Assembly (NCBI GenBank): GCA_000092065.1
Contig: CP000592.1
Origin: Ostreococcus lucimarinus
Taxonomy: Eukaryota
Length of the DNA: 64,000 nucleotides
Direction: 5' to 3' (one strand)
This document shows positions 630 to 9,223 of this stretch, in pieces. The number at the start of each line of letters is the position of its first letter. Within the stretch, counting starts at the first letter, position 1. The position numbers and the translations under genes are program-made. The notes under the pieces were generated by a model. The model worked only from the letters and a program-made list of their open reading frames with translations, searched no databases and was not told the origin of the DNA.

Positions 630-881
630 GTCTTCGCTCTACGTCCGTCGTGCGCGCGCGCGTGGGAAAGGCGGTTCGCGCGCGTCGCGCCTCGCCCGCG
701 AGGCCGGCGCGGCCGATGGTTCGTGTTTGGTCTCGCGATCCGTCGATCGCGCGCGCGACGCTCGATCGTCGCCGCGTCGATCGCGCGCGGCGCGTCGACC
801 TCGACGCGTCGATCGATCGACCGCATCGTCGATCGATCGACGACCCGCGCGTCGGTCGACGCGGCGTCGGCACCGCGCGAC

Positions 882-911
<30 letters not shown>

Positions 912-912
<1 letters not shown>

Positions 913-2246
913 TGGACGACGATCGCGGACGACGCGGGCGAGGACGACGACGACGACGAGGCGGCGTGCGAGGCGGTGACGCGCTGCGCGCGCTCGGCCT
1001 CGGGCTCGGACTCGTCGCGACGGGGGCGCGCGCGGCGCGACGCGCGGGCGCGTTTGAAACGACCGAAACGACCTCGACGATGGCCGATGCGTTTTGGACG
1101 GTGGCGACGAACGCGATCGAACGCGCGTGGGCGCCGAGAACGCAGAGCGCGACGGTGACGCCGCGCGATGCGTTCGGCGCGGCACGGGCGACGGCGACGG
1201 CGCGAGAGGTCGGTGAGGCGGACGCGGCGACGCTCGCGCGTCGGTTTGAGCGCTGGTGCGTCGAACACGGAGTGGAGGAATATCTGCGAGACGGAGAGGA
1301 GTACGCGAAGCGATTGGCGATTTTCGTGGAGAACGCGGCGTTTGTGGTGGAGCACAACGCCAAGTACGTTTTGGGAGAGATTTCGCATTGGGTGGCGTTG
1401 AACGCCCTCGCGGCGACGACGCGGGAGGAGTTCAAGCGCATGCTCGGGTACAAGCCCGAGTTGCGCGACGCGACGCAAACCGTCGGAGCCACGCGCGATG
1501 CGGACGAATACAAGGCGAACTGGAAGTATGCCAGCGTCGAGCCACTGGAAAACGTCGATTGGGTCGAACGCGGCGCCGTGACGGCGCCGAAGAACCAAGG
1601 ACAGTGCGGCTCGTGCTGGGCGTTTTCGACGACGGGCGCGATCGAGGGCATCAATCAAATTCGTACTGGCAGGCTCGTGTCGCTCTCTGAACAAGAGCTC
1701 GTGTCGTGTTCGACCCAGAACATGGCGTGCAACGGTGGACTCATGGATAACGCGTTCAAATGGGTGCAAAAGAACGGCGGAATTGACTCTGAATTTCAGT
1801 ACCCTTACGCCGCGGAGAAGCTCTCGTGCAACAAATTCAAGCTTCAACTCCACGTCGCCACCATCGACGGGTTCGAGGACGTACCTCCGGGAGATGAGAA
1901 AGAGCTCGAGAAAGCTGTGTCGCAACAACCTGTTAGCATCGCCATCGAGGCCGACACAAAAGCGTTTATGCTCTACCAAGGCGGCGTTTTCGATTCCAAA
2001 GAGTGCGGTTCTCAAGTCGATCACGGCGTTCTCGTCGTCGGTTACGGCTACGACGATCATCCCAACGCAACGGAAGCGACGCACCATCACCACAAAAACC
2101 ACCACAGGCACTTCTGGAAAGTCAAGAACTCGTGGGGCAATCAGTGGGGCGAAGGTGGTTTCATTCGCATGGCTCGACGAATCAGCGCTGAAACGGGTCA
2201 GTGCGGAATCACGACGGCACCATCCTTCCCGACGAAGAGCGCGTGA
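912..2246 (+). CDS. Papain-family (C1A) cysteine protease, cathepsin L-like, with an I29-type propeptide
   Basis: Catalytic motifs are [11 protein letters not shown] (Cys), [10 protein letters not shown] (His) and KNSWG (Asn). A propeptide helix [21 protein letters not shown] is present. The ORF is open from 723 (GTG). ATG 912 precedes a hydrophobic signal-like segment [18 protein letters not shown]. An alternative ATG lies at 1080. Confidence 0.88.
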
Positions 2247-2616
2247 TTTCTACTTTACAAAGACGATACGATTTTCATACTTGTACGATACGATTCTGTA
2301 AACTAAAACGATACCATACGTCGATGTTGTGATACAATTACGCTTTGATTCTTGCAAATTTCCTTCTAGGTTGTTCTATTTCCTTAGCTCGTAACGCCTA
2401 CAGTTCGTCAAATCGTCAGTCAAGCTGGTGAGATCGGTGCGTGATTTCTCCCAGCACATTCGCGGCACACGCGCGAGGAAGCTCAGAAGGATCCATTGGT
2501 ATTTACTAGTTTCACCGAGCTTGCTCTCACCGTAGTAGTGCGAAAACGAGCGCAATCATCATCGCTTCCTCGCGTTGGATCGATCTCAACGACGACGATG
2601 ACGACGACATCAGGAA

Positions 2617-2684
2617 AGGCTCAGTCCTATCGATCGTTTATCATGGGTAATCAGGATTAGCATGATTATAAGTCATCATCGCCT
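2617..2684 (-). ncRNA. Candidate box C/D snoRNA (68 nt)
   Basis: The minus strand reads AGAGGC-G-ATGATGA(C box)-CTTATAATCATGCTAATC-CTGA(D')-TTACCCA-TGATAAA(C'-like)-CGATCGATAGGA-CTGA(D)-GCCTTT. AGAGGC and GCCTTT form a 6-bp terminal stem (one G-U) directly flanking boxes C and D. The candidate lies in the 543-bp spacer downstream of the LSm1 stop. Confidence 0.5.
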
Positions 2685-2789
2685 CTGTTCCGTCTTCGTC
2701 GTCCTCGTCGTCGCCGTCGAGCGATCGTCGCGTCTTCAATCTCCACACGCACCTCTCGTCGTCCCATGCGCCCCCTTTGCGTTCGATCA

Positions 2790-3170
2790 TCACTCATCTA
2801 AAAAGTCCATTCGTTTCAAGATGTCTCCCTTCATCGCCTCCGCGGTCTGATCCGCCTCCCTCGCCCGTATGATCTCCGCGTTGTCCACCTCAATCAACCC
2901 TTCCGTGCCGTCCAAGTCCCCGTTCGCCCCGACGTCGCCCATGAGCACGACGTTCTCGCCTCGCACGATGTACAATCCGAGTGGGATATCGCTGAACATC
3001 TTTCCGACGATGATGCGCTCGACCGCGCTCTCGAGGACGATGTTTGCGAATTGGTCGAACGATCGCAGCGTGCCGATGATGTTCGAGCCGTCGCGCAGCG
3101 CGACGAGCAGGCGCTTGTCCAGGTTCTCCACCAGGCTCGCCACCGCGCTGAGATGCCACGTGTCCGTCAT
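2790..3170 (-). CDS. LSM1: Sm-like protein LSm1
   Basis: The 126-aa product is collinear with LSm1. Matching segments are ASLVENLDKRLLVALRDGSNIIGTLRSFDQFANIVLESAVERI and GLYIVRGENVVLMG (Sm1/Sm2 motifs). Confidence 0.9.
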   Translation of the reverse strand: MTDTWHLSAVASLVENLDKRLLVALRDGSNIIGTLRSFDQFANIVLESAVERIIVGKMFSDIPLGLYIVRGENVVLMGDVGANGDLDGTEGLIEVDNAEIIRAREADQTAEAMKGDILKRMDFLDE

Positions 3171-3266
3171 CGCGCGGCTCGTGCGCGCGGTCGCGAGGGA
3201 CGCGAGACGGAGCGCGAGATGCGTCGCGCGCGCGGGAGTGCGGCGCGACAGTGTCGCGCGCGCGTC

Positions 3267-3405
3267 ATGGACGACGCGCGACGGGGCGAGAACGAGGTCG
3301 AGGCGGGGACGAGGACGACGGTCGAGTACGATGACGCGTCGGACGGGGAGTCGTTCGGCGCGTTCGCGACGCCCGCGCGCGCGTTCGCGGATGGGACGAC
3401 GGAAA

Positions 3406-3448
<43 letters not shown>

Positions 3449-3992
3449 TTTCGGGGATTTCGCGACGCCGGCGACGACGATGAAAACGGTCACGACGCCG
3501 GTGATGCGTGACGAACCGCCGCCGACGCCGCCGCCGACGACGACGACGGGCGGTGGGGAGTTTGATTTGATTGCTTTGACGAACGAAGGCGAGTTCGCCG
3601 AGGCGGCGCGGCGGTTGTTGAAGAGAGGGAAGGCTCGATCGACGAACGACGGCGCCGAAAAGGAGTCGTTCGGCGGGTTAGGTACGGCAGCGGTCGTAGG
3701 CGATGGACGGTTCACGAAGGAGGCGTTCGATCGCTTTAGAGACAACGTCAAACGCGAGGCGAGCGCGGAGGCGTCTGCGTCCGAGGAGGACGAGGAAGAG
3801 ACGTCCGTGGATGACGCAGCACCGAGAGAAATCTTGGCAGAGTTTGATTTGATTTCTCTCGAGTCAGCACCGAAAGTCGCCGAGTCGACTCCGAGTATGG
3901 ATCCGTTCGCTGGATTTGGCGACATCGCCGTGGAGTCTCCATCGCCACCGCAAAACGCCGACAATGACGATGAATTTGGCGATTTTGTATAG
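3267..3992 (+). CDS. Acidic, probably disordered protein rich in DFGDF / DPF / EFDLI short linear motifs (possible clathrin-adaptor accessory protein)
   Basis: The ORF contains a 14-residue poly-D run and the motifs SFGAF, DFGDF, EFDLI (twice), DPFAGFGD and a C-terminal DDEFGDFV. The first ATG clear of the LSm1 overlap is 3267; the ORF is open from 3051. Confidence 0.5.
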
Positions 3993-4024
3993 ACATTAGA
4001 GCTGTTGTATGCTATAGTAGTGGA

Positions 4025-7000
4025 TTAGACTTTGACTGAGCGCAGCGCGAGAAGTTCATTGAGACACGTGGTATGCGCTTCCGTGAGATTCAACACTTCT
4101 CTTTCAACATTTGAGATGTCTTTTTTAATCTCTCGCAGCTCACGCGCATTCTCCAGCTCTTGTACCTTGAGCTTGTCGCGTAAATCTTCTGTGCCTTGAC
4201 CATTATTCACAACCTTGTCTAAATCTTCCAGAACGATGAGCTTTCCAAACTTTCGGATCTGAGTCTCAGAGTATTTGCGTTGCAGACTCTGAAATTCTTT
4301 CGCCTTAGCGGAACGTTGCGCGATGAGCGAGGAGTGCTCTCGCTTTAACTCCTGCTGCTGACGTTTCAATTTTAAGACTTCTGCATCCCACTCTACGACT
4401 TTATTCTCAAGTTCTGCTAAGCGAGTCTTGGAGAAAATAATCATGTCGTCCATGTCGCCTTGACTCGTCTCGACGCAGCTCACCGGCAACACGAATGCAG
4501 TCCTGAGCCCGTTCAAACTTTGCTGCTTTACCTTCTCAAAAGCATCCGCATCTCTCTCGAGTACCCGTACGTTTTCCTCCAAACTTCGCAACTTTTTCAG
4601 TGCGGCATCGTGAATCTTTTTCTTCCCATCCAATGCCCGTTGTATTTCAGTTATTGCGTCCATGGCTTCGATTCTTTGCAAACGAAGATCGCACACGCGC
4701 TCGTAGACAGCACTGTCGCAACCTTTTGGGCAAGTGTCGCCATTTTCTTCGTCTGACGACGAATAGTACGAATCATCGTCAAAATCAGAGTCTAAGTCGG
4801 AATCGGAGTCACCTTTGTCGCTCTTTTGTTCGGTTTTATTGACGACGCGTTTGTGGAAAACTTTGAGCAATGCCGCTCGCGGGACGCCTGGAATCATGAA
4901 TTTGTCAAATGTCGCCTCGATTTCCGCTTTTACTCCGTTCTGCCCCTCTAATTTGGTCTGTTGATCGTTTACGGCCGTCTGGGCATTTTCTACCGCCGCA
5001 CGAGCGGTTTCGACCTCTTCCTTTGCTTGCCGTTGAGCATTTTGCATTTCGGTGTTCTTCACGTCATATTCAGGCATGACGCTCAGCTCGCGATGCACTA
5101 CAATACGAAAAAGTTCAATGACTTTACTTCGCGCGATGATATCTGCTTTTAGATGGCATAGCGAGATAAGATCTTCATCGGTGACAGCGTCCTTCGCATC
5201 GATGCAATCAAACTCTCGATTGAACCGGCTCTGGTTGCCGCGTAGTTGACCATCGACATATCTCAATTCGGAAAGTTTACCCTCCGTCGTTAATTTGTCT
5301 TCAGGTGGTACACGTGAATCCGGAACGCAACGCAATGGAAACCCATCGCCAAGATTGTCGCGTTTCAACGCTTCGCTGTCGTCTGTTTGGTCTTTCAAAG
5401 GCTCTGCCTTCTCCAATTTTCTCAACTCTTCGTTCCTCCGTAATCTTTCGAAGCGCCGTCGAGCCTCTGAACTCATTTCAGAGCCTTCGATGCTCTGTCT
5501 TTCGTGCGCATTTTCACTTATGCAAGTATTTTGCACATGAACGACACGCATCTCTTGTTCGCATTCATGAACTGTCGCCTCTGCGACCGTAGTTGTCTGC
5601 CAATCACCCTCGCTTCCAGCGCGCAACGCAAAAGATGAGCACGTCAAAGCTTCGCTAGATGAATGAATCATACGAGGAAGGGCCATTATTTTGTCGTAAT
5701 AACTTTTTTGCAGTTGATTTGAGACAGATTCAGCACACATAACTGAGCTTTGAAGCTTGTCGTGAGTCGCTTTTAACCAGTGTACTGAATCCTCGCGAAT
5801 TCGGCGCATTTGTGTATCGTCTACGAGAAGTTCTGCGCCAGAGATTCGCATCTCTCGAGGAAGTTTTGCATTTTCTTCAATGATGACATTGAATTCATCT
5901 CGACAGAGCGCCACCAAGCTCGAGAGTCGTATAAGTGCTGCCGCTTCTTCCTCGCTCAATTCCTTCGCGCGTTCTCGCTGCAGTACCTCTTCGATGGACG
6001 CGCACTGTGCGGAGAGTGTGTCGATCGCTTCGACTTCTGGATAGATGCACAGCGCCTCGTCGATTGAAGAGTGTGTGTTTGATGGAGAAGCATCGCTTAA
6101 CGCGTGTACTTCAAAAGATCCCGATTTACAGATTTTAACGCAGTAAGAATTATCATACGTTATCGCGCTGAAAGATTCATCAACGGCGTTCTTGGTTTCT
6201 ACATCGGTGGTAATACGAGGAGTGACATCGATTTCGTACGAATCTTTACGAGACTCACCCAAGTCACGATGGACGGCAAAGCAGTGCATCTCGTCCTCGA
6301 TTTGAGCACCAAAAATACTTTCACCATCCCAAAATATCTTCTTCGGGCGAGCACTCAGGCGTATGAAACCAATTGGCTCAAATTGCAACGTCGATGCGAA
6401 GGAAGATGAACTGAAAATAAACACAGTATTATTAGCAGCAGCGATTGCCAAATACTCACCATCAGAACTCCATGTGAACTGCTCGACGGCATGCGCGTGT
6501 GGCTTGAGCGCGAGAGCCAAGCGCCAAGAGGACGTGTTTCTCACGAGAACGCGAACGACACCATCGGCAAATCCAACGACGATACATCTCCCATCTTCAT
6601 TGACATTCAAAGGTACGTTAGTAAGTGCCGTCGCCGAACAGCTGAACCGACTTTTGTAGAGAAACGCACGGGATAAATAATCATAGCAGTGCACTTCTCC
6701 GATATTGTCGCAAGTGATCAAGTGAGTACTGTTCAGCGAAGTCTCGCATGCAGTGATGACACCACTGTGCGCAGAAACAACAGGACGCTCCATATCATCA
6801 TCGTCCAAAGAACACACTAACCCTCGCCCGCTGTCTTGAATGAATAACTTATTTTCAAGCGCGCAAATGTGGCGGATATTGGCTCCATCGATTGAGCGCT
6901 CTGAGATGGGTTTCATACAAACCACCCCTTTGCTTTGCGACGATATGACGCGACGAATCTCGTCAATATTCCATTCTCGAACCCACCCATCATCGCCCGC

Positions 7001-7798
7001 CGTGAGAATCACTGAACCGTTGTTGATATAAATCATCGTCTCGATCGAACCGCCGTGGCAGTCTTCATCGTCGCTCGACGCGTTTGCTCGCATTATTTTG
7101 TACTGAACGCGCCCATCGACCCAGATTAGTAGAGCGCCATACTCTGTGCTCGTCAAAATCATATCATTAAAGGGTAACTCCAACACGCACGTGATATTGG
7201 ACAGAGGTTCGCCGTTGAACTTTCCAAGAGTACCTTGTAACTTCAATCCAGTAAACGTCTTGACCATCTGCCAAAACTGAATGTGACCAGCGCCGTGAGT
7301 GATCATTCGCTCCGAGTTAGCGCCTAGGAAGGATAAGTCAAACACTTCTTGTCCATACGCTTTGGCACGAAGGACTGTCTTTGCTGTCTTCCAGTCCCAC
7401 AAAGTGAGCCAATAGTCTGGGAGCCCACTCACGCTCGCGAGAAGCTGTCCGTCTGGAGAAAATTTTCCAGTCGAGTAACACGCCGCGGCGCCGCCGTGAA
7501 TCGTGTTTACGAGCTCAAGTGAAGGGTAACTATATATTGATATTCGGGGCGCCGCACCATTCTCGCCGATCGCAATGTGCGTGCCATCTCCATCCACGGC
7601 GACCAAGCCGATATTGCCCCCCTCCGCGCTCCGCAGGTACGTCTGCCTTTGTGTTTTCACGTCTCGCAAGGTCAAGAGATTTCCAACAGTGTACGCCACG
7701 ACTGAATCGCGTACTCGAGTCAAGTTGCCCCGTCGCTTGAAATCAAATCCAAAGCTGCACGCCAGGCAACCATGCTCGAGAGACTTATTTTTAGCCAT
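4025..7798 (-). CDS. Cilia/flagella-associated WD-repeat plus coiled-coil protein (CFAP43/44/57-like)
   Basis: This is an uninterrupted 1257-aa ORF. The N-terminal half has WD/beta-propeller-type repeats (ISIYSYPSLE, YWLTLWDWKTAK, HGAGHIQFWQM). The C-terminal ~600 aa are heptad-rich coiled coil. Size and layout match axonemal CFAP WD proteins. The sequence is visibly AT-richer than its neighbours. Confidence 0.7.
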   Translation of the reverse strand: MAKNKSLEHGCLACSFGFDFKRRGNLTRVRDSVVAYTVGNLLTLRDVKTQRQTYLRSAEGGNIGLVAVDGDGTHIAIGENGAAPRISIYSYPSLELVNTIHGGAAACYSTGKFSPDGQLLASVSGLPDYWLTLWDWKTAKTVLRAKAYGQEVFDLSFLGANSERMITHGAGHIQFWQMVKTFTGLKLQGTLGKFNGEPLSNITCVLELPFNDMILTSTEYGALLIWVDGRVQYKIMRANASSDDEDCHGGSIETMIYINNGSVILTAGDDGWVREWNIDEIRRVISSQSKGVVCMKPISERSIDGANIRHICALENKLFIQDSGRGLVCSLDDDDMERPVVSAHSGVITACETSLNSTHLITCDNIGEVHCYDYLSRAFLYKSRFSCSATALTNVPLNVNEDGRCIVVGFADGVVRVLVRNTSSWRLALALKPHAHAVEQFTWSSDGEYLAIAAANNTVFIFSSSSFASTLQFEPIGFIRLSARPKKIFWDGESIFGAQIEDEMHCFAVHRDLGESRKDSYEIDVTPRITTDVETKNAVDESFSAITYDNSYCVKICKSGSFEVHALSDASPSNTHSSIDEALCIYPEVEAIDTLSAQCASIEEVLQRERAKELSEEEAAALIRLSSLVALCRDEFNVIIEENAKLPREMRISGAELLVDDTQMRRIREDSVHWLKATHDKLQSSVMCAESVSNQLQKSYYDKIMALPRMIHSSSEALTCSSFALRAGSEGDWQTTTVAEATVHECEQEMRVVHVQNTCISENAHERQSIEGSEMSSEARRRFERLRRNEELRKLEKAEPLKDQTDDSEALKRDNLGDGFPLRCVPDSRVPPEDKLTTEGKLSELRYVDGQLRGNQSRFNREFDCIDAKDAVTDEDLISLCHLKADIIARSKVIELFRIVVHRELSVMPEYDVKNTEMQNAQRQAKEEVETARAAVENAQTAVNDQQTKLEGQNGVKAEIEATFDKFMIPGVPRAALLKVFHKRVVNKTEQKSDKGDSDSDLDSDFDDDSYYSSSDEENGDTCPKGCDSAVYERVCDLRLQRIEAMDAITEIQRALDGKKKIHDAALKKLRSLEENVRVLERDADAFEKVKQQSLNGLRTAFVLPVSCVETSQGDMDDMIIFSKTRLAELENKVVEWDAEVLKLKRQQQELKREHSSLIAQRSAKAKEFQSLQRKYSETQIRKFGKLIVLEDLDKVVNNGQGTEDLRDKLKVQELENARELREIKKDISNVEREVLNLTEAHTTCLNELLALRSVKV

Positions 7799-7987
7799 AA
7801 CTTGAGAGGTGCGAGCAAACTCTGTTCAAGACTCACACGGGGCGATGCGATCCGTACGCGCGCGTGAGTGTATCGTGTGTGCGCGCGCGCGTTTGCTGTC
7901 ACTACTTCTTTTGCGCCACGTACGGCGTCGTCGAGTGCAGAATCATTTATGCTTGTATTACAAAATAACCGACGTCGGCTCGGGCGC

Positions 7988-9223
7988 TCACTTCCCCGAC
8001 ATTTCTGCGTTCAATTCAGCAAGCTTTTCTTCTTGTTCCAAAGCCTGCATGCCCCCGATCGCACCCTTGATGTCGCCGTCTAAGAAATTTTGAAGAGAGA
8101 AGTTAGCGCCGATGCGATGGTCCGACACGCGGCTATCTTTCCAGTTGTACGTTCTAATTTTTTCCGACCGAGACCCCGAGCCGACTTGCGATTTACGCTT
8201 GTCCGATACCGCTTTGCGCTGCTCTTCGAGCTGCAACTCAAATAATTTCGCGCGAAGAATTTGCATGGCACGAATGCGATTCTTCATTTGTGTACGTTCT
8301 TCCGTGCAGAACACGCGAATGCCGGTCGGCTTGTGCATCAGGTCGATAGCGGTTTCGACTTTGTTGACGTTTTGCCCACCCGCACCGCCGCTTCTGGCGG
8401 TGGAAATATCGAGGTCATTGTCGTCAATCTTCACCTCGACTTCGTCGACTTCAGGCATCACCGCGACCGTGGCCGTGGAAGTTTGAATGCGTCCTTGAGT
8501 TTCCGTCGCCGGCACGCGCTGCACGCGATGCACACCGGCTTCCCACTTGAGACTGCTGTACACGTCGTCGCCCTTTATCTCCACGACGATTTCCTTATAC
8601 CCGCCGGCGTCCGCCGGGTTGTTCGTCACGACCGACGTTTGCCATCCCTCGCGCTCGGCGAATCGCATATACATTCGATATAAATCCCCAGCCCAAATAC
8701 CAGCCTCATCCCCGCCAGTACCGGCGCGAATCTCGAGCATGATGTTCTTCTCGTCGAGCGGGTCCTTCGGCAGCAGCGCCAACGTCATGGTCTCCACCAG
8801 CGCATCACTCTCCGTCGTCAGCGCATCGATCTCTTCCTTCGCCATCGCCACCATCTCATCATCCCCAGCCGCATCCTTCGCCATCGCGCGCGCCTCGCTA
8901 ATCTCTTTCATGCACTCCTTGTACCGCGCGTACTGCTCCACCACGCTCGTCAGCTCCCCGAGCGCCTTGCTCAGCTTTTGAAACTCCTTCGGATCGCCCG
9001 TCACGCTCGGATCCGCCATGCGCTCGCTGATCTCGCCGTGCGTCCGCGTCGTCGCCTCGAGTTTTTGCACCAGAAACTCCGGAATGTCCACCGCGCGCGT
9101 TCGCACCCCTCGCCGCGTCGTCGTCGTCCCGCGCGCCGGCGCTCGTCCACCGTCCCGAGCGTTTTTCGCGCGCGCGTTCGCGCGCGACGCCGCGTTCGTC
9201 GCCGGCGACGCGCGCGCCATCAT
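7988..9223 (-). CDS. prfA: Organellar peptide chain release factor 1 (RF1-type)
   Basis: It carries the PxT anticodon tripeptide ([10 protein letters not shown]) and the GGQ motif ([11 protein letters not shown]). An R/A/T-rich presequence follows MMARASP (ATG 9223). The ORF is over-extended to 9688. Confidence 0.9.

What the first reader, a model, noticed from the sequence alone, without database searches (positions are those of the whole stretch)
2398..2752. Candidate box C/D snoRNA inside a putative 355-nt intron just downstream of the LSm1 stop codon
On the minus strand, 2684-2617 has all the parts of a C/D snoRNA. These are a 6-bp terminal stem (AGAGGC/GCCTTT), C box ATGATGA, an 18-nt guide, D' CTGA, a C'-like TGATAAA, a 12-nt guide and D box CTGA. 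It is bracketed by a consensus donor (GAG|GTGCGTGTGG at 2752) about 35 nt after the LSm1 stop. Downstream there is a CTGAC...TAG acceptor at 2398-2400. This suggests a snoRNA-hosting intron in the LSm1 3'UTR or in a separate non-coding host. The 543-bp spacer here is far longer than the usual 30-100 bp tail-to-tail spacers, consistent with extra content.
Basis: seen in the sequence. Interest (0 to 1): 0.5.

Follow-up and report, generated by a model that had tools for sequence, protein, structure and literature searches.

The report
Two known snoRNAs in LSm1 intron

Summary
The window is Ostreococcus lucimarinus. A second one lies 43 nt downstream (2571-2475) and was missed. A strict C/D scan of all 64 kb finds only these two loci; shuffled windows average 0.12.

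Both are positional and sequence orthologues (85% and 77%) of Ot-CDsno96 and Ot-CDsno97. RNA-seq detected those in O. tauri (Bousquet 2020, PMC7671301), and that paper already scores both as present in O. lucimarinus.

Against real Ostreococcus-type rRNA and O. tauri U6, the guides pair with:
- 18S A526 (13 bp; equivalent to yeast Am541 and human Am590);
- 18S A770 (10 bp; yeast Am796) and U6 GAUUA*GC (11 bp);
- a 25S adenosine not listed as methylated (10 bp; prediction only).

Both snoRNAs sit downstream of LSm1 in 10 Mamiellales lineages, with compensatory stem changes.

The intron is supported indirectly. All 10 lineages have a donor, a CTGAC motif and a YAG bracketing the pair on the sense strand, none on the antisense strand, and shuffles average 1.2 of 10. 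The signals match a genuine O. lucimarinus RPS25 intron. No spliced RNA was seen, and the paper files the cluster as intergenic.

Verdict: correct observation, known snoRNAs, and a modest likely correction of their genomic organisation.

The parts
2790..3170 (-). LSm1 coding sequence (126 aa; stop TGA at 2792-2790), the proposed host gene
   Evidence: The ORF is listed. The exact protein is XP_001420788.1 of Ostreococcus lucimarinus CCE9901, carries Pfam LSM, and is named LSm1 by JGI and UniRef.
2753..2789 (-). 3'UTR segment of proposed exon 1 (37 nt between the stop codon and the splice donor)
   Evidence: This is inferred, not shown by RNA.
2398..2752 (-). Proposed 355-nt spliceosomal intron carrying both snoRNAs
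   Evidence: Donor, CTGAC and YAG bracket the snoRNA pair in 10 of 10 lineages on the sense strand and 0 of 10 on the antisense strand. Shuffled flanks average 1.2 of 10 and never exceed 6. The signals match the genuine RPS25 introns. No spliced RNA was observed.
2747..2752 (-). Splice donor GTGCGT (context GAG|GTGCGTGT)
   Evidence: Seen. The O. lucimarinus RPS25 intron donor CAG|GTGCGTGC has the same hexamer.
2615..2686 (-). sno1: box C/D snoRNA, orthologue of O. tauri Ot-CDsno96. Stem 2686-2681 / 2620-2615; C box 2679-2673; D' guide 2672-2655; D' 2654-2651; C' ATGATAA 2644-2638; D guide 2637-2625; D box 2624-2621
   Evidence: Supported. It is 85.5% identical to Ot-CDsno96. Sub-threshold Rfam hits are snoR53Y (27 bits), snoU6-53 (22.3) and ceN53 (25.2).
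Stem GAGGAAGC 2571-2564 / GCTTCCTC 2482-2475, extendable to 11 bp (2574 / 2472); C box ATGATGA 2562-2556; degenerate D'-like GTGA 2530-2527; C'-like GTGAAA 2515-2510; D guide 2499-2487; D box CTGA 2486-2483
   Evidence: Supported. It is 77% identical to Ot-CDsno97. The Rfam snoR41 hit spans the full model at 24.2 bits, below threshold.
2415..2419 (-). Branch-point motif CTGAC (context TTGACTGACGA), 56 nt downstream of the sno2 3' stem; the branch A is 18 nt upstream of the acceptor
   Evidence: Seen. The same TGACTGAC octamer occurs in the O. lucimarinus RPS25 intron. CTGAC is present after the second snoRNA in all 10 lineages, although in L021 it lies far downstream.
2398..2400 (-). Splice acceptor TAG (TAG|G)
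   Evidence: Seen. The diverged strain L003 has CAG at the same place, so acceptor function is preserved across a substitution and indel.
2247..2397 (-). Proposed exon 2 (rest of the LSm1 3'UTR), with a TGTAA motif at 2259-2255. It would overlap the 3'UTR of the convergent protease gene, whose own TGTAA is on the + strand at 2297
   Evidence: Seen. Its role as a poly(A) signal is inferred from general knowledge of green algae and was not tested.
723..2246 (+). Convergent papain-type cysteine protease gene (Inhibitor_I29 + Peptidase_C1). It bounds the spacer, and the LSm1-protease arrangement is conserved in almost all of the relatives
   Evidence: Seen. L022 has no protease call.

Best explanation
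The 543-bp LSm1-protease spacer of Ostreococcus lucimarinus holds a dicistronic pair of canonical box C/D snoRNAs on the LSm1 strand.

sno1 (2686-2615) is the orthologue of O. tauri Ot-CDsno96, which corresponds functionally to snR53/snoR53Y and to SNORD8/9. sno2 (2571-2475) is the orthologue of Ot-CDsno97, which corresponds to snoR41Y/SNORD62.

As snoRNPs they would direct 2'-O-methylation of the target nucleotide paired to the fifth guide position upstream of the D or D' box:
- The sno2 D guide would act on 18S A526.
- The sno1 D' guide would act on 18S A770 and/or the U6 adenosine in GAUUA*GC.
- The sno1 D guide would act on a 25S domain-V adenosine in UGGCCUA*UCGAUCC. This last target is a prediction only.

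The pair most likely lies in a 355-nt spliceosomal intron (2752-2398) in the 3'UTR of the LSm1 mRNA. On that model both snoRNAs are co-transcribed with LSm1, released by splicing and debranching, separated by a cut in the spacer between them, and trimmed by exonucleases back to the protein-protected terminal stems.

Shown here: the motifs, their statistical rarity, orthology, guide-target complementarity, and conservation of the stems and splice signals. Taken from the literature: expression and the uncapped status of the O. tauri orthologues. Inferred: splicing, LSm1 as host, the processing route, and actual methylation in this species.
For: Identity of the snoRNAs:
- The strict C/D scan finds only these two loci in 64 kb, against 0.12 in shuffled windows.
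- Rfam gives end-to-end sub-threshold matches to snoR53Y, snoU6-53 and snoR41.
- The published Ot-CDsno96 and 97 sequences and chr12 coordinates map to the same LSm1-protease spacer in the O. tauri reference. Identities are 85.5% and 77.2%.
- The O. tauri RNAs were detected at about 3500 and 230 TPM, are uncapped, and are assigned U6.A51 plus 18S.A770, and 18S.A526.

Targets:
- On a complete Ostreococcus-type rDNA unit whose 18S numbering reproduces the paper's, the guides pair 13 bp at 18S A526, 10 bp at 18S A770, 11 bp at U6, and 10 Watson-Crick bp at 25S A2602.
- A526 and A770 are experimentally mapped methylation sites in plants and yeast, and A526 also in human.

Conservation:
- Both snoRNAs lie downstream of LSm1 in 10 lineages.
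- The guide cores are invariant.
- The terminal stems differ in sequence but always pair, with double-sided compensatory changes.
- In the 97%-identical strain L003, substitutions avoid both snoRNAs.

Intron:
- Splice signals are present in 10 of 10 lineages on the sense strand and 0 of 10 on the antisense strand. Shuffles average 1.2 and never exceed 6.
- The donor hexamer GTGCGT and branch octamer TGACTGAC are identical to those of the genuine RPS25 intron of the same species (O. tauri introns).
- The acceptor changes from TAG to CAG in L003 and so remains an acceptor.
- The donor is 3-151 nt after the LSm1 stop, and 3 nt in L022, which leaves no room for a separate promoter.
- There are no plant-type cluster promoter motifs and no T-run terminators.
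Against: - No RNA-level evidence of splicing was obtained. The junction search in metagenome contigs found nothing, although those are DNA assemblies. All O. tauri contigs, including Logan assemblies, show the unspliced 502-nt spacing.
- Bousquet et al. file the orthologous cluster as 'cl 9 - IG', an independent intergenic cluster.
- All Rfam hits are below the gathering scores.
- Shuffled guides often reach 10-11 bp duplexes (75 of 500 and 149 of 500 shuffles). The sno1 target assignments therefore rest on conservation and on known sites, not on duplex length.
- The 25S site is not a mapped methylation site in the organisms tabulated.
- In L021 the only CTGAC lies far downstream, so its branch site is non-consensus.
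- The lineages share ancestry, so the 10 of 10 count overstates independence.
Confidence: 0.75

Rival explanations
1. This is an independent intergenic dicistronic snoRNA gene, as published for O. tauri cluster 9. On this reading the pair has its own RNA polymerase II promoter, yields a polycistronic precursor processed by nucleases without splicing, and the splice-like motifs are not used.
For: Supplementary Table S3 of PMC7671301 labels Ot-CDsno96 and 97 'cl 9 - IG'. Ten such clusters are reported in O. tauri. No spliced RNA was seen here.
Against: The paper's label appears to follow the existing gene annotation, and the main text never mentions UTRs. Only 102 nt separate the LSm1 stop from sno1 in the window, and about 39 nt in L022, so any promoter would have to lie inside the LSm1 gene. 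Sense-strand donor, CTGAC and YAG signals occur in 10 of 10 lineages against 0 of 10 antisense and 1.2 of 10 in shuffles. They are identical to genuine intron signals of the same species. No telo-box or site II motifs were found.
Confidence: 0.17
2. The snoRNAs are cut out of an unspliced LSm1 3'UTR or read-through transcript by endonucleases. They would be co-transcribed with LSm1 but released independently of splicing, with the intron signals weak or used only occasionally.
For: The snoRNAs are on the same strand as LSm1 and immediately downstream. The O. tauri RNAs are uncapped. Two snoRNAs in one unit need an endonucleolytic cut between them in any case.
Against: This does not explain why consensus donor and branch/acceptor signals are kept in every lineage while the surrounding sequence is unalignable between genera. 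It also does not explain why the last snoRNA always ends 42-89 nt before the branch motif (positions).
Confidence: 0.07
3. This is a chance C/D-like motif or a decayed snoRNA pseudogene with no function.
For: All Rfam hits fall below the gathering scores. Short guide matches alone are not statistically rare.
Against: Only two strict candidates exist in 64 kb, against 0.12 expected. The orthologues are abundant RNAs in O. tauri. Boxes and guides are invariant across genera, with compensatory stem changes. The snoRNAs carry no substitutions between strains while their flanks do.
Confidence: 0.01

Closest known systems
Ostreococcus tauri Ot-CDsno96 and Ot-CDsno97, 'cluster 9' (Bousquet et al. 2020, NAR Genom Bioinform, PMC7671301)
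   Same: They occupy the same syntenic position between LSm1 and the convergent cysteine protease, in the same order and on the same strand. Identities are 85.5% and 77.2%. Boxes and guide cores are identical, and so are the predicted targets (U6 plus 18S A770, and 18S A526). The paper's Table S5 already scores both as present in O. lucimarinus.
   Different: The paper files the cluster as independent and intergenic, whereas the comparative evidence here points to an intron in the LSm1 3'UTR. The paper reports no orthologues in Micromonas or Bathycoccus by BLASTN, whereas synteny-guided search finds them in Micromonas-type loci and in an AT-rich locus that I tentatively assign to Bathycoccus. 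The paper lists no target for the D guide of Ot-CDsno96, whereas a 25S target is predicted here.
snR53 (yeast) / snoR53Y (plants, Rfam RF01279)
   Same: The sno1 D' guide core CAUGCUAAU pairs with 18S AUUAGCAUG so that the methylated base is the A equivalent to yeast Am796 and Arabidopsis Am801. The match to the Rfam model runs end to end.
   Different: The score is 27 bits against a gathering score of 43, so it is not a formal Rfam member. The second (D) guide is unrelated to the plant consensus.
SNORD8/SNORD9 (mgU6-53; Rfam snoU6-53, RF00377)
   Same: The same sno1 D' guide pairs 11 bp with U6 GAUUAGCAUGG and would methylate the A of GAUUA*GC. From my own knowledge, not checked with tools, this is the position of human U6 Am53. 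The paper lists SNORD8/9 as the human orthologues.
   Different: The score is 22.3 bits against a gathering score of 36. Here one guide fits both 18S and U6, because the two targets share AUUAGCAUGG. Guide position 1 varies among lineages and favours neither target consistently.
snoR41Y (Arabidopsis) / SNORD62 (human) / snR41 (yeast); Rfam snoR41, RF00205
   Same: The sno2 D guide ACCAAUGGAUCCUU pairs 13-16 bp with 18S and targets the A equivalent to Arabidopsis Am545, human Am590 and yeast Am541. The D-guide segment is nearly identical to the Rfam consensus.
   Different: The score is 24.2 bits against a gathering score of 40. The 5' half is unrelated to the plant family, and no rRNA target was found for it.
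Intronic snoRNA clusters (O. tauri clusters 3 and 5 in PMC7671301; also reported in rice and Drosophila, from my own knowledge)
   Same: More than one snoRNA sits in a single spliceosomal intron of a protein-coding host gene.
   Different: Here the intron would lie in the 3'UTR, downstream of the stop codon, so splicing does not affect the protein. This has not been confirmed by RNA data.

Membership tests
Box C/D snoRNA (general class) | C box RUGAUGA near the 5' end and D box CUGA near the 3' end | tested here: met
   sno1 has ATGATGA at 2679-2673 and CTGA at 2624-2621. sno2 has ATGATGA at 2562-2556 and CTGA at 2486-2483.
Box C/D snoRNA (general class) | A terminal helix bringing the C and D boxes together, supported by covariation | tested here: met
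   The helix is 6 bp in sno1 and 8-11 bp in sno2. There are 10 and 9 distinct helix sequences across lineages, all of which pair. RNAalifold recovers both stems with double-sided compensatory changes; sno2 pairs 6/112, 7/111 and 8/110 are never broken and show 4-6 double changes.
Box C/D snoRNA (general class) | Internal D' and C' boxes | tested here: inconclusive
   sno1 has a clear D' CTGA (2654-2651) and a one-mismatch C' ATGATAA (2644-2638). sno2 has only degenerate candidates, GTGA at 2530-2527 and GTGAAA at 2515-2510.
Box C/D snoRNA (general class) | A guide of at least 9-10 nt complementary to rRNA or snRNA, placed so that the fifth nucleotide upstream of D or D' pairs with the modified base | tested here: met
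   18S A526 pairs 13 bp, 18S A770 10 bp, U6 11 bp and 25S A2602 10 bp, all in the correct register. A526 and A770 are mapped methylation sites in other eukaryotes.
Box C/D snoRNA (general class) | Accumulates as a stable RNA of about 60-100 nt bound by fibrillarin, Nop56, Nop58 and Snu13 | not testable with these tools
   RNA accumulation is shown only for the O. tauri orthologues (67 and 88 nt, about 3500 and 230 TPM). There are no data for O. lucimarinus and no protein-binding data.
Orthologous group of Ot-CDsno96 / Ot-CDsno97 | Same syntenic position and strand, with alignable sequence and identical guide cores | tested here: met
   The published coordinates map to the LSm1-protease spacer of the O. 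tauri reference, L039. Identities are 85.5% and 77.2%. Table S5 scores O. lucimarinus as 1 for both.
Rfam snoR53Y (RF01279) | Score at or above the curated gathering threshold (43 bits) | tested here: not met
   The score is 27.0 bits, E = 0.011, over the full model length. Nothing in the window reaches a gathering score.
Rfam snoU6-53 (RF00377) | Score at or above the curated gathering threshold (36 bits) | tested here: not met
   The score is 22.3 bits, E = 0.025.
Rfam snoR41 (RF00205) | Score at or above the curated gathering threshold (40 bits) | tested here: not met
   The score is 24.2 bits, E = 0.088, over the full model length, with the D guide matching the consensus.
Intron-hosted snoRNA (spliceosomal intron) | Consensus 5' splice site, branch motif and 3' splice site flanking the snoRNA on its own strand | tested here: met
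   The window has GAG|GTGCGT at 2752, TGACTGAC at 2422-2415 and TAG|G at 2400-2398. These are identical to the signals of the O. lucimarinus RPS25 intron and similar to those of the O. tauri RPS25 introns.
Intron-hosted snoRNA (spliceosomal intron) | Splice signals conserved in relatives beyond chance | tested here: met
   Ten of 10 lineages have them on the sense strand and 0 of 10 on the antisense strand. Two thousand flank shuffles average 1.21 of 10 and never exceed 6. The acceptor changes from TAG to CAG in L003.
Intron-hosted snoRNA (spliceosomal intron) | A spliced exon-exon junction observed in RNA | tested here: inconclusive
   The junction pattern is absent from metagenome contigs, but those are DNA. 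Nine of ten O. tauri contigs (the tenth ends too early to judge) show the unspliced spacing. No transcript data were available.

The most novel reading that the evidence does not exclude
The published 'independent intergenic cluster 9' would in fact be an intronic snoRNA pair in the 3'UTR of LSm1, conserved across Mamiellales (Ostreococcus, Micromonas-type, Mantoniella-like and Bathycoccus-like lineages). That would couple production of an 18S/U6-modifying and an 18S-modifying snoRNA to transcription and splicing of an mRNA-decay factor gene. In addition, the most conserved guide of sno1 would direct a previously unlisted 2'-O-methylation of a universally conserved single-stranded 25S domain-V adenosine, about yeast A2758 by landmark mapping.
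Probability: 0.55. Interest if true: 0.35.

Novelty: already known. Interest (0 to 1): 0.25.

Why it matters
Mostly as a check on the method. A tool-free reading of raw sequence correctly picked out a real snoRNA and the exact boundaries of a probable intron.

Biologically the gain is modest:
- It suggests that at least one of the 'independent intergenic' snoRNA clusters in the O. tauri catalogue is an unannotated 3'UTR intron of a protein-coding gene. That would shift the reported balance between animal-like intronic and plant-like polycistronic organisation in this very compact genome.
- It extends two snoRNAs that the paper scored as present only in the three Ostreococcus species tested to the whole order Mamiellales.
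- It gives one testable new methylation-site prediction near the peptidyl-transferase region of 25S rRNA.

Tried and rejected
- Rfam at gathering thresholds over the whole window found nothing. Only the permissive scan of the region gave family leads.
- A search for the predicted spliced junction in metagenome contigs found nothing. This is uninformative because those are DNA assemblies.
- A scan of viral contigs for stray eukaryotic 18S found nothing.
- I tried to confirm a recalled Ostreococcus-specific 18S probe sequence (OSTREO01) in the literature. The papers cite the probe but do not give the sequence, and the string I recalled occurs in no paper. I did not use it, and instead used a two-anchor pattern built from the paper's site spacing.
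- I looked for transcript contigs of O. tauri and Mantoniella LSm1. All recovered contigs have genomic, unspliced spacing.
- I searched for an rRNA or snRNA target for the conserved 5' half of sno2. There were only G-U-rich matches that differ between lineages, so I rejected them.
- My initial assignment from memory of the sno1 D-guide target to yeast A2640 (snR68) was wrong. Landmark calibration puts it near yeast A2758, and the paper assigns the A2640-equivalent site to a different snoRNA, Ot-CDsno113.
- The bacterial-type promoter and terminator scan is irrelevant for this eukaryote and found nothing of note. No plant telo-box or site II motifs were found.
- The 2026 O. tauri telomere-to-telomere preprint adds nothing about this cluster's organisation.
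Full report
**Organism and context.** The 126-aa ORF at 3170-2790 on the minus strand is identical to LSm1 of Ostreococcus lucimarinus CCE9901 (XP_001420788.1). It converges on a papain-type cysteine protease gene (723-2246, plus strand), leaving a 543-bp spacer. The next tail-to-tail spacer in the window, between the ORF ending at 3992 and the gene ending at 4025, is only 32 bp.

**The observation.** In order they are: AGAGGC (2686-2681), a G, ATGATGA (2679-2673), an 18-nt guide (2672-2655), CTGA (2654-2651), TTACCC, ATGATAA (2644-2638), a 13-nt guide (2637-2625), CTGA (2624-2621) and GCCTTT (2620-2615). The donor GAG|GTGCGT has its G at 2752, 37 nt after the stop codon. TGACTGAC is at 2422-2415 and TAG|G at 2400-2398.

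It has stem GAGGAAGC (2571-2564), ATGATGA (2562-2556), the D guide ACCAATGGATCCTT, CTGA (2486-2483) and stem GCTTCCTC (2482-2475).

A strict architecture scan of both strands of the whole 64-kb window returns exactly these two loci. Each has a box-anchored 10-bp Watson-Crick match to rRNA. One hundred locally shuffled windows average 0.12 candidates, and none has such a match.

**What it is.** Rfam finds nothing at gathering thresholds. A permissive scan gives end-to-end matches of the first unit to snoR53Y (27 bits), ceN53 and snoU6-53, and of the second unit to snoR41 (24 bits).

The literature settles the identity. Bousquet et al. 2020 (PMC7671301) sequenced medium-size RNAs of O. tauri and list Ot-CDsno96 and Ot-CDsno97 next to each other on chr12. 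Their coordinates fall in the LSm1-protease spacer of the O. tauri reference (locus L039). The window's units are 85.5% and 77.2% identical to them.

The O. tauri RNAs are 67 and 88 nt long, uncapped, and present at about 3500 and 230 TPM. The predicted targets are U6.A51 plus 18S.A770 (orthologues SNORD8/9 and snR53) and 18S.A526 (orthologues SNORD62 and At-snoR41Y). The paper's Table S5 already scores both as present in O. lucimarinus. The snoRNAs are therefore known.

**Targets tested on real sequence.** The window contains no rRNA. I built a two-anchor pattern from the paper's site spacing, with the two 18S target sequences separated by about 232 nt. It retrieved rDNA contigs from metagenomes. 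One of them, L029, carries a complete 18S-5.8S-25S unit, and its 18S numbering reproduces the paper's A526 and A770 exactly.

Against this rRNA and the published O. tauri snRNAs:
- The sno2 D guide pairs 13 bp at 18S A526.
- The sno1 D' guide pairs 10 bp at 18S A770 and 11 bp at U6 GAUUA*GC. The two targets share AUUAGCAUGG.
- The sno1 D guide pairs 10 contiguous Watson-Crick bp, or 14 of 15, at a 25S adenosine in UGGCCUA*UCGAUCC.

Shuffled guides reach 10-11 bp quite often: 75 of 500 and 149 of 500 shuffles, against 6 of 500 for the 13-bp duplex. Duplex length alone is therefore weak evidence for sno1.

The stronger evidence is twofold. First, A526 and A770 are experimentally mapped methylation sites elsewhere: Arabidopsis Am545 and Am801, yeast Am541 and Am796, and human Am590. 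Second, the guide cores are conserved, as described below.

The 25S site maps to position 2767 of the Rfam LSU model, in a conserved single-stranded stretch of domain V. By landmark calibration it corresponds to about yeast A2758. It is not among the tabulated methylation sites and is not listed by the paper, so it remains a prediction.

**Conservation.** I fetched the DNA around LSm1 orthologues of 65-87% identity. All had a long spacer (502-1028 bp) downstream of LSm1, and both snoRNAs were present in ten lineages. These cover other Ostreococcus clades, O. tauri, Micromonas-type loci, a Mantoniella-like locus, and an AT-rich locus that I tentatively assign to Bathycoccus.

The paper, using BLASTN, scored both snoRNAs as absent from Micromonas and Bathycoccus. 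Synteny shows otherwise for the Micromonas-type loci and the AT-rich locus.

- The sno2 D guide pairs 13-16 bp with 18S A526 in all ten lineages.
- The sno1 D-guide core GATCGATAG is invariant in all ten, and its best anchored hit is always the same 25S adenosine.
- The sno1 D' core CATGCTAAT is kept in seven lineages and has decayed in three Micromonas-type lineages.
- The order of the two snoRNAs is swapped in the Micromonas-type loci.

The terminal stems differ in sequence between lineages but always pair. RNAalifold recovers both stems with compensatory double changes. In a 97%-identical strain (L003), substitutions cluster in the flanks and in the spacer between the snoRNAs, while both snoRNAs are unchanged. 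The only exception is an A-to-G change in the sno2 stem that converts an A-U pair to G-U.

**The intron.** The paper labels the cluster 'cl 9 - IG', meaning independent and intergenic.

- In 10 of 10 lineages, a GT[AGC][AC]G donor lies between the LSm1 stop and the first snoRNA, and a CTGAC followed by YAG lies after the second snoRNA. The antisense strand of the same spacers gives 0 of 10. Two thousand shuffles of the flanks average 1.21 of 10 and never exceed 6.
- These flanks cannot be aligned between genera, so simple sequence inheritance does not explain the pattern.
- Genuine introns of the neighbouring RPS25 gene have the same signals. O. tauri uses AAG|GTACGA and CAG|GTGCGC donors with GACTGAC 25-30 nt before the AG. 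O. lucimarinus uses CAG|GTGCGTGC with GTGACTGAC. The candidate's donor hexamer and branch octamer are identical to those of the same-species intron.
- The acceptor is TAG in the window and CAG in L003.
- The donor lies 3-151 nt after the LSm1 stop, and only 3 nt in L022. The upstream exon must therefore be the LSm1 mRNA itself, not a separate non-coding host.
- The last snoRNA ends 42-89 nt before the branch motif. From my own knowledge, this is the range reported as favourable for splicing-coupled assembly of intronic C/D snoRNPs in mammals.
- There are no plant-type cluster promoter motifs and no T-run terminators.

Against the intron, I found no RNA-level evidence. The junction search returned nothing, but it searched DNA assemblies. 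All O. tauri contigs, including Logan assemblies, have the unspliced spacing. In L021 the branch motif is non-consensus. I put the intron at about 0.75 and the snoRNA identity at above 0.95.

**Mechanism.**
- Shown here: the sequence features, orthology, target complementarity, and conservation.
- From the paper: the orthologous RNAs accumulate and are uncapped.
- Inferred: LSm1 pre-mRNA is transcribed through the spacer. Splicing at 2752/2398 releases a lariat that carries both snoRNAs. Core proteins bound at the C/D kink-turns protect them while debranching, a cut in the spacer between them, and exonucleolytic trimming produce RNAs of about 68 and 90 nt. These then guide fibrillarin to methylate 18S A526, 18S A770 and/or U6, and possibly the 25S site.

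The exon junction is 37 nt from the stop codon in the window. From my own knowledge, that is inside the distance usually tolerated without nonsense-mediated decay, but it is 92-151 nt in three other lineages, so no general conclusion follows.

**Comparison and novelty.** These are canonical box C/D snoRNAs. They are functional counterparts of snR53/snoR53Y plus mgU6-53, and of snoR41Y/SNORD62. They fail the Rfam gathering thresholds, so they are not formal members of those Rfam families, but they are clear orthologues of the published O. tauri RNAs.

Nothing about the kind of element is new. Three points go beyond the published catalogue:
- the probable 3'UTR-intron organisation, where the paper says intergenic;
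- conservation across the order, where the paper scores both absent from the Bathycoccus and Micromonas genomes it tested;
- a predicted 25S target for the D guide of sno1.

Interest is low to modest.

Noticed in passing
Loci L016:4524-4758, L018:4664-4921, L020:4503-4713 and L021:4698-4936, compared with window 2475-2688: The order of the two snoRNAs inside the putative intron is sno2 then sno1 in the Micromonas-type loci. It is sno1 then sno2 in Ostreococcus, L014, L022 and L023, so a rearrangement happened within the intron.
   Followed up: partly
L016, L018 and L020 (sno1 D' guide region): The sno1 D' guide, which targets 18S A770 and U6, has decayed in three Micromonas-type lineages (CATGCAAACC or CATGCTTTATT). 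The D guide is invariant in all lineages. In L016 the C box is also degenerate (GGGACGA).
   Followed up: partly
Window 2555-2510 (sno2 5' half) and the homologous regions of all loci: A conserved block (…TCGCAC…GGTGAGAG…GCT.GG…) lies between the C box and the C'-like box of sno2. No consistent rRNA or snRNA complement was found, so its role is unexplained. It could be structural, provide extra base-pairing, or target an RNA that was not tested.
   Followed up: partly
L014, L016, L018, L020-L023 (spacers downstream of LSm1): Bousquet et al. 2020 Table S5 scores Ot-CDsno96 and 97 as absent from Micromonas and Bathycoccus. Synteny-guided inspection finds both in Micromonas-type loci, a Mantoniella-like locus, and an AT-rich locus (L023) that I tentatively assign to Bathycoccus.
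   Followed up: yes
Window 1-64000; especially 4001-8000: GC content per 2 kb swings between 0.47 and 0.68. The 1257-aa WD40 gene at 4025-7798 is only about 0.47-0.50 GC, while neighbouring stretches reach 0.73.
   Followed up: no
Window about 3395-3450: A long (GAC)n/(GTC)n trinucleotide run encodes a poly-aspartate tract in the plus-strand ORF 3051-3992. That ORF overlaps the LSm1 5' region on the opposite strand.
   Followed up: no
Window 2247-2300: A TGTAA motif occurs on both strands (minus strand at 2259-2255, plus strand starting at 2297). This suggests that the 3'UTRs of LSm1 and the convergent protease gene overlap by some tens of nucleotides.
   Followed up: no
L035:956-1488: In a Mantoniella-like metagenome contig, the JGI gene caller placed a 23-aa gene spanning 533 nt immediately downstream of LSm1. 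In other words, the predictor modelled an intron in the equivalent spacer.
   Followed up: no
L029:1046-6562: This is a complete Ostreococcus-type rDNA unit: 18S of 1770 nt, 5.8S of 153 nt and 25S of 3177 nt. Its 25S numbering runs 12 ahead of the numbering in Bousquet et al. and 156 behind yeast in domain V. That offset is useful for converting published site numbers.
   Followed up: yes
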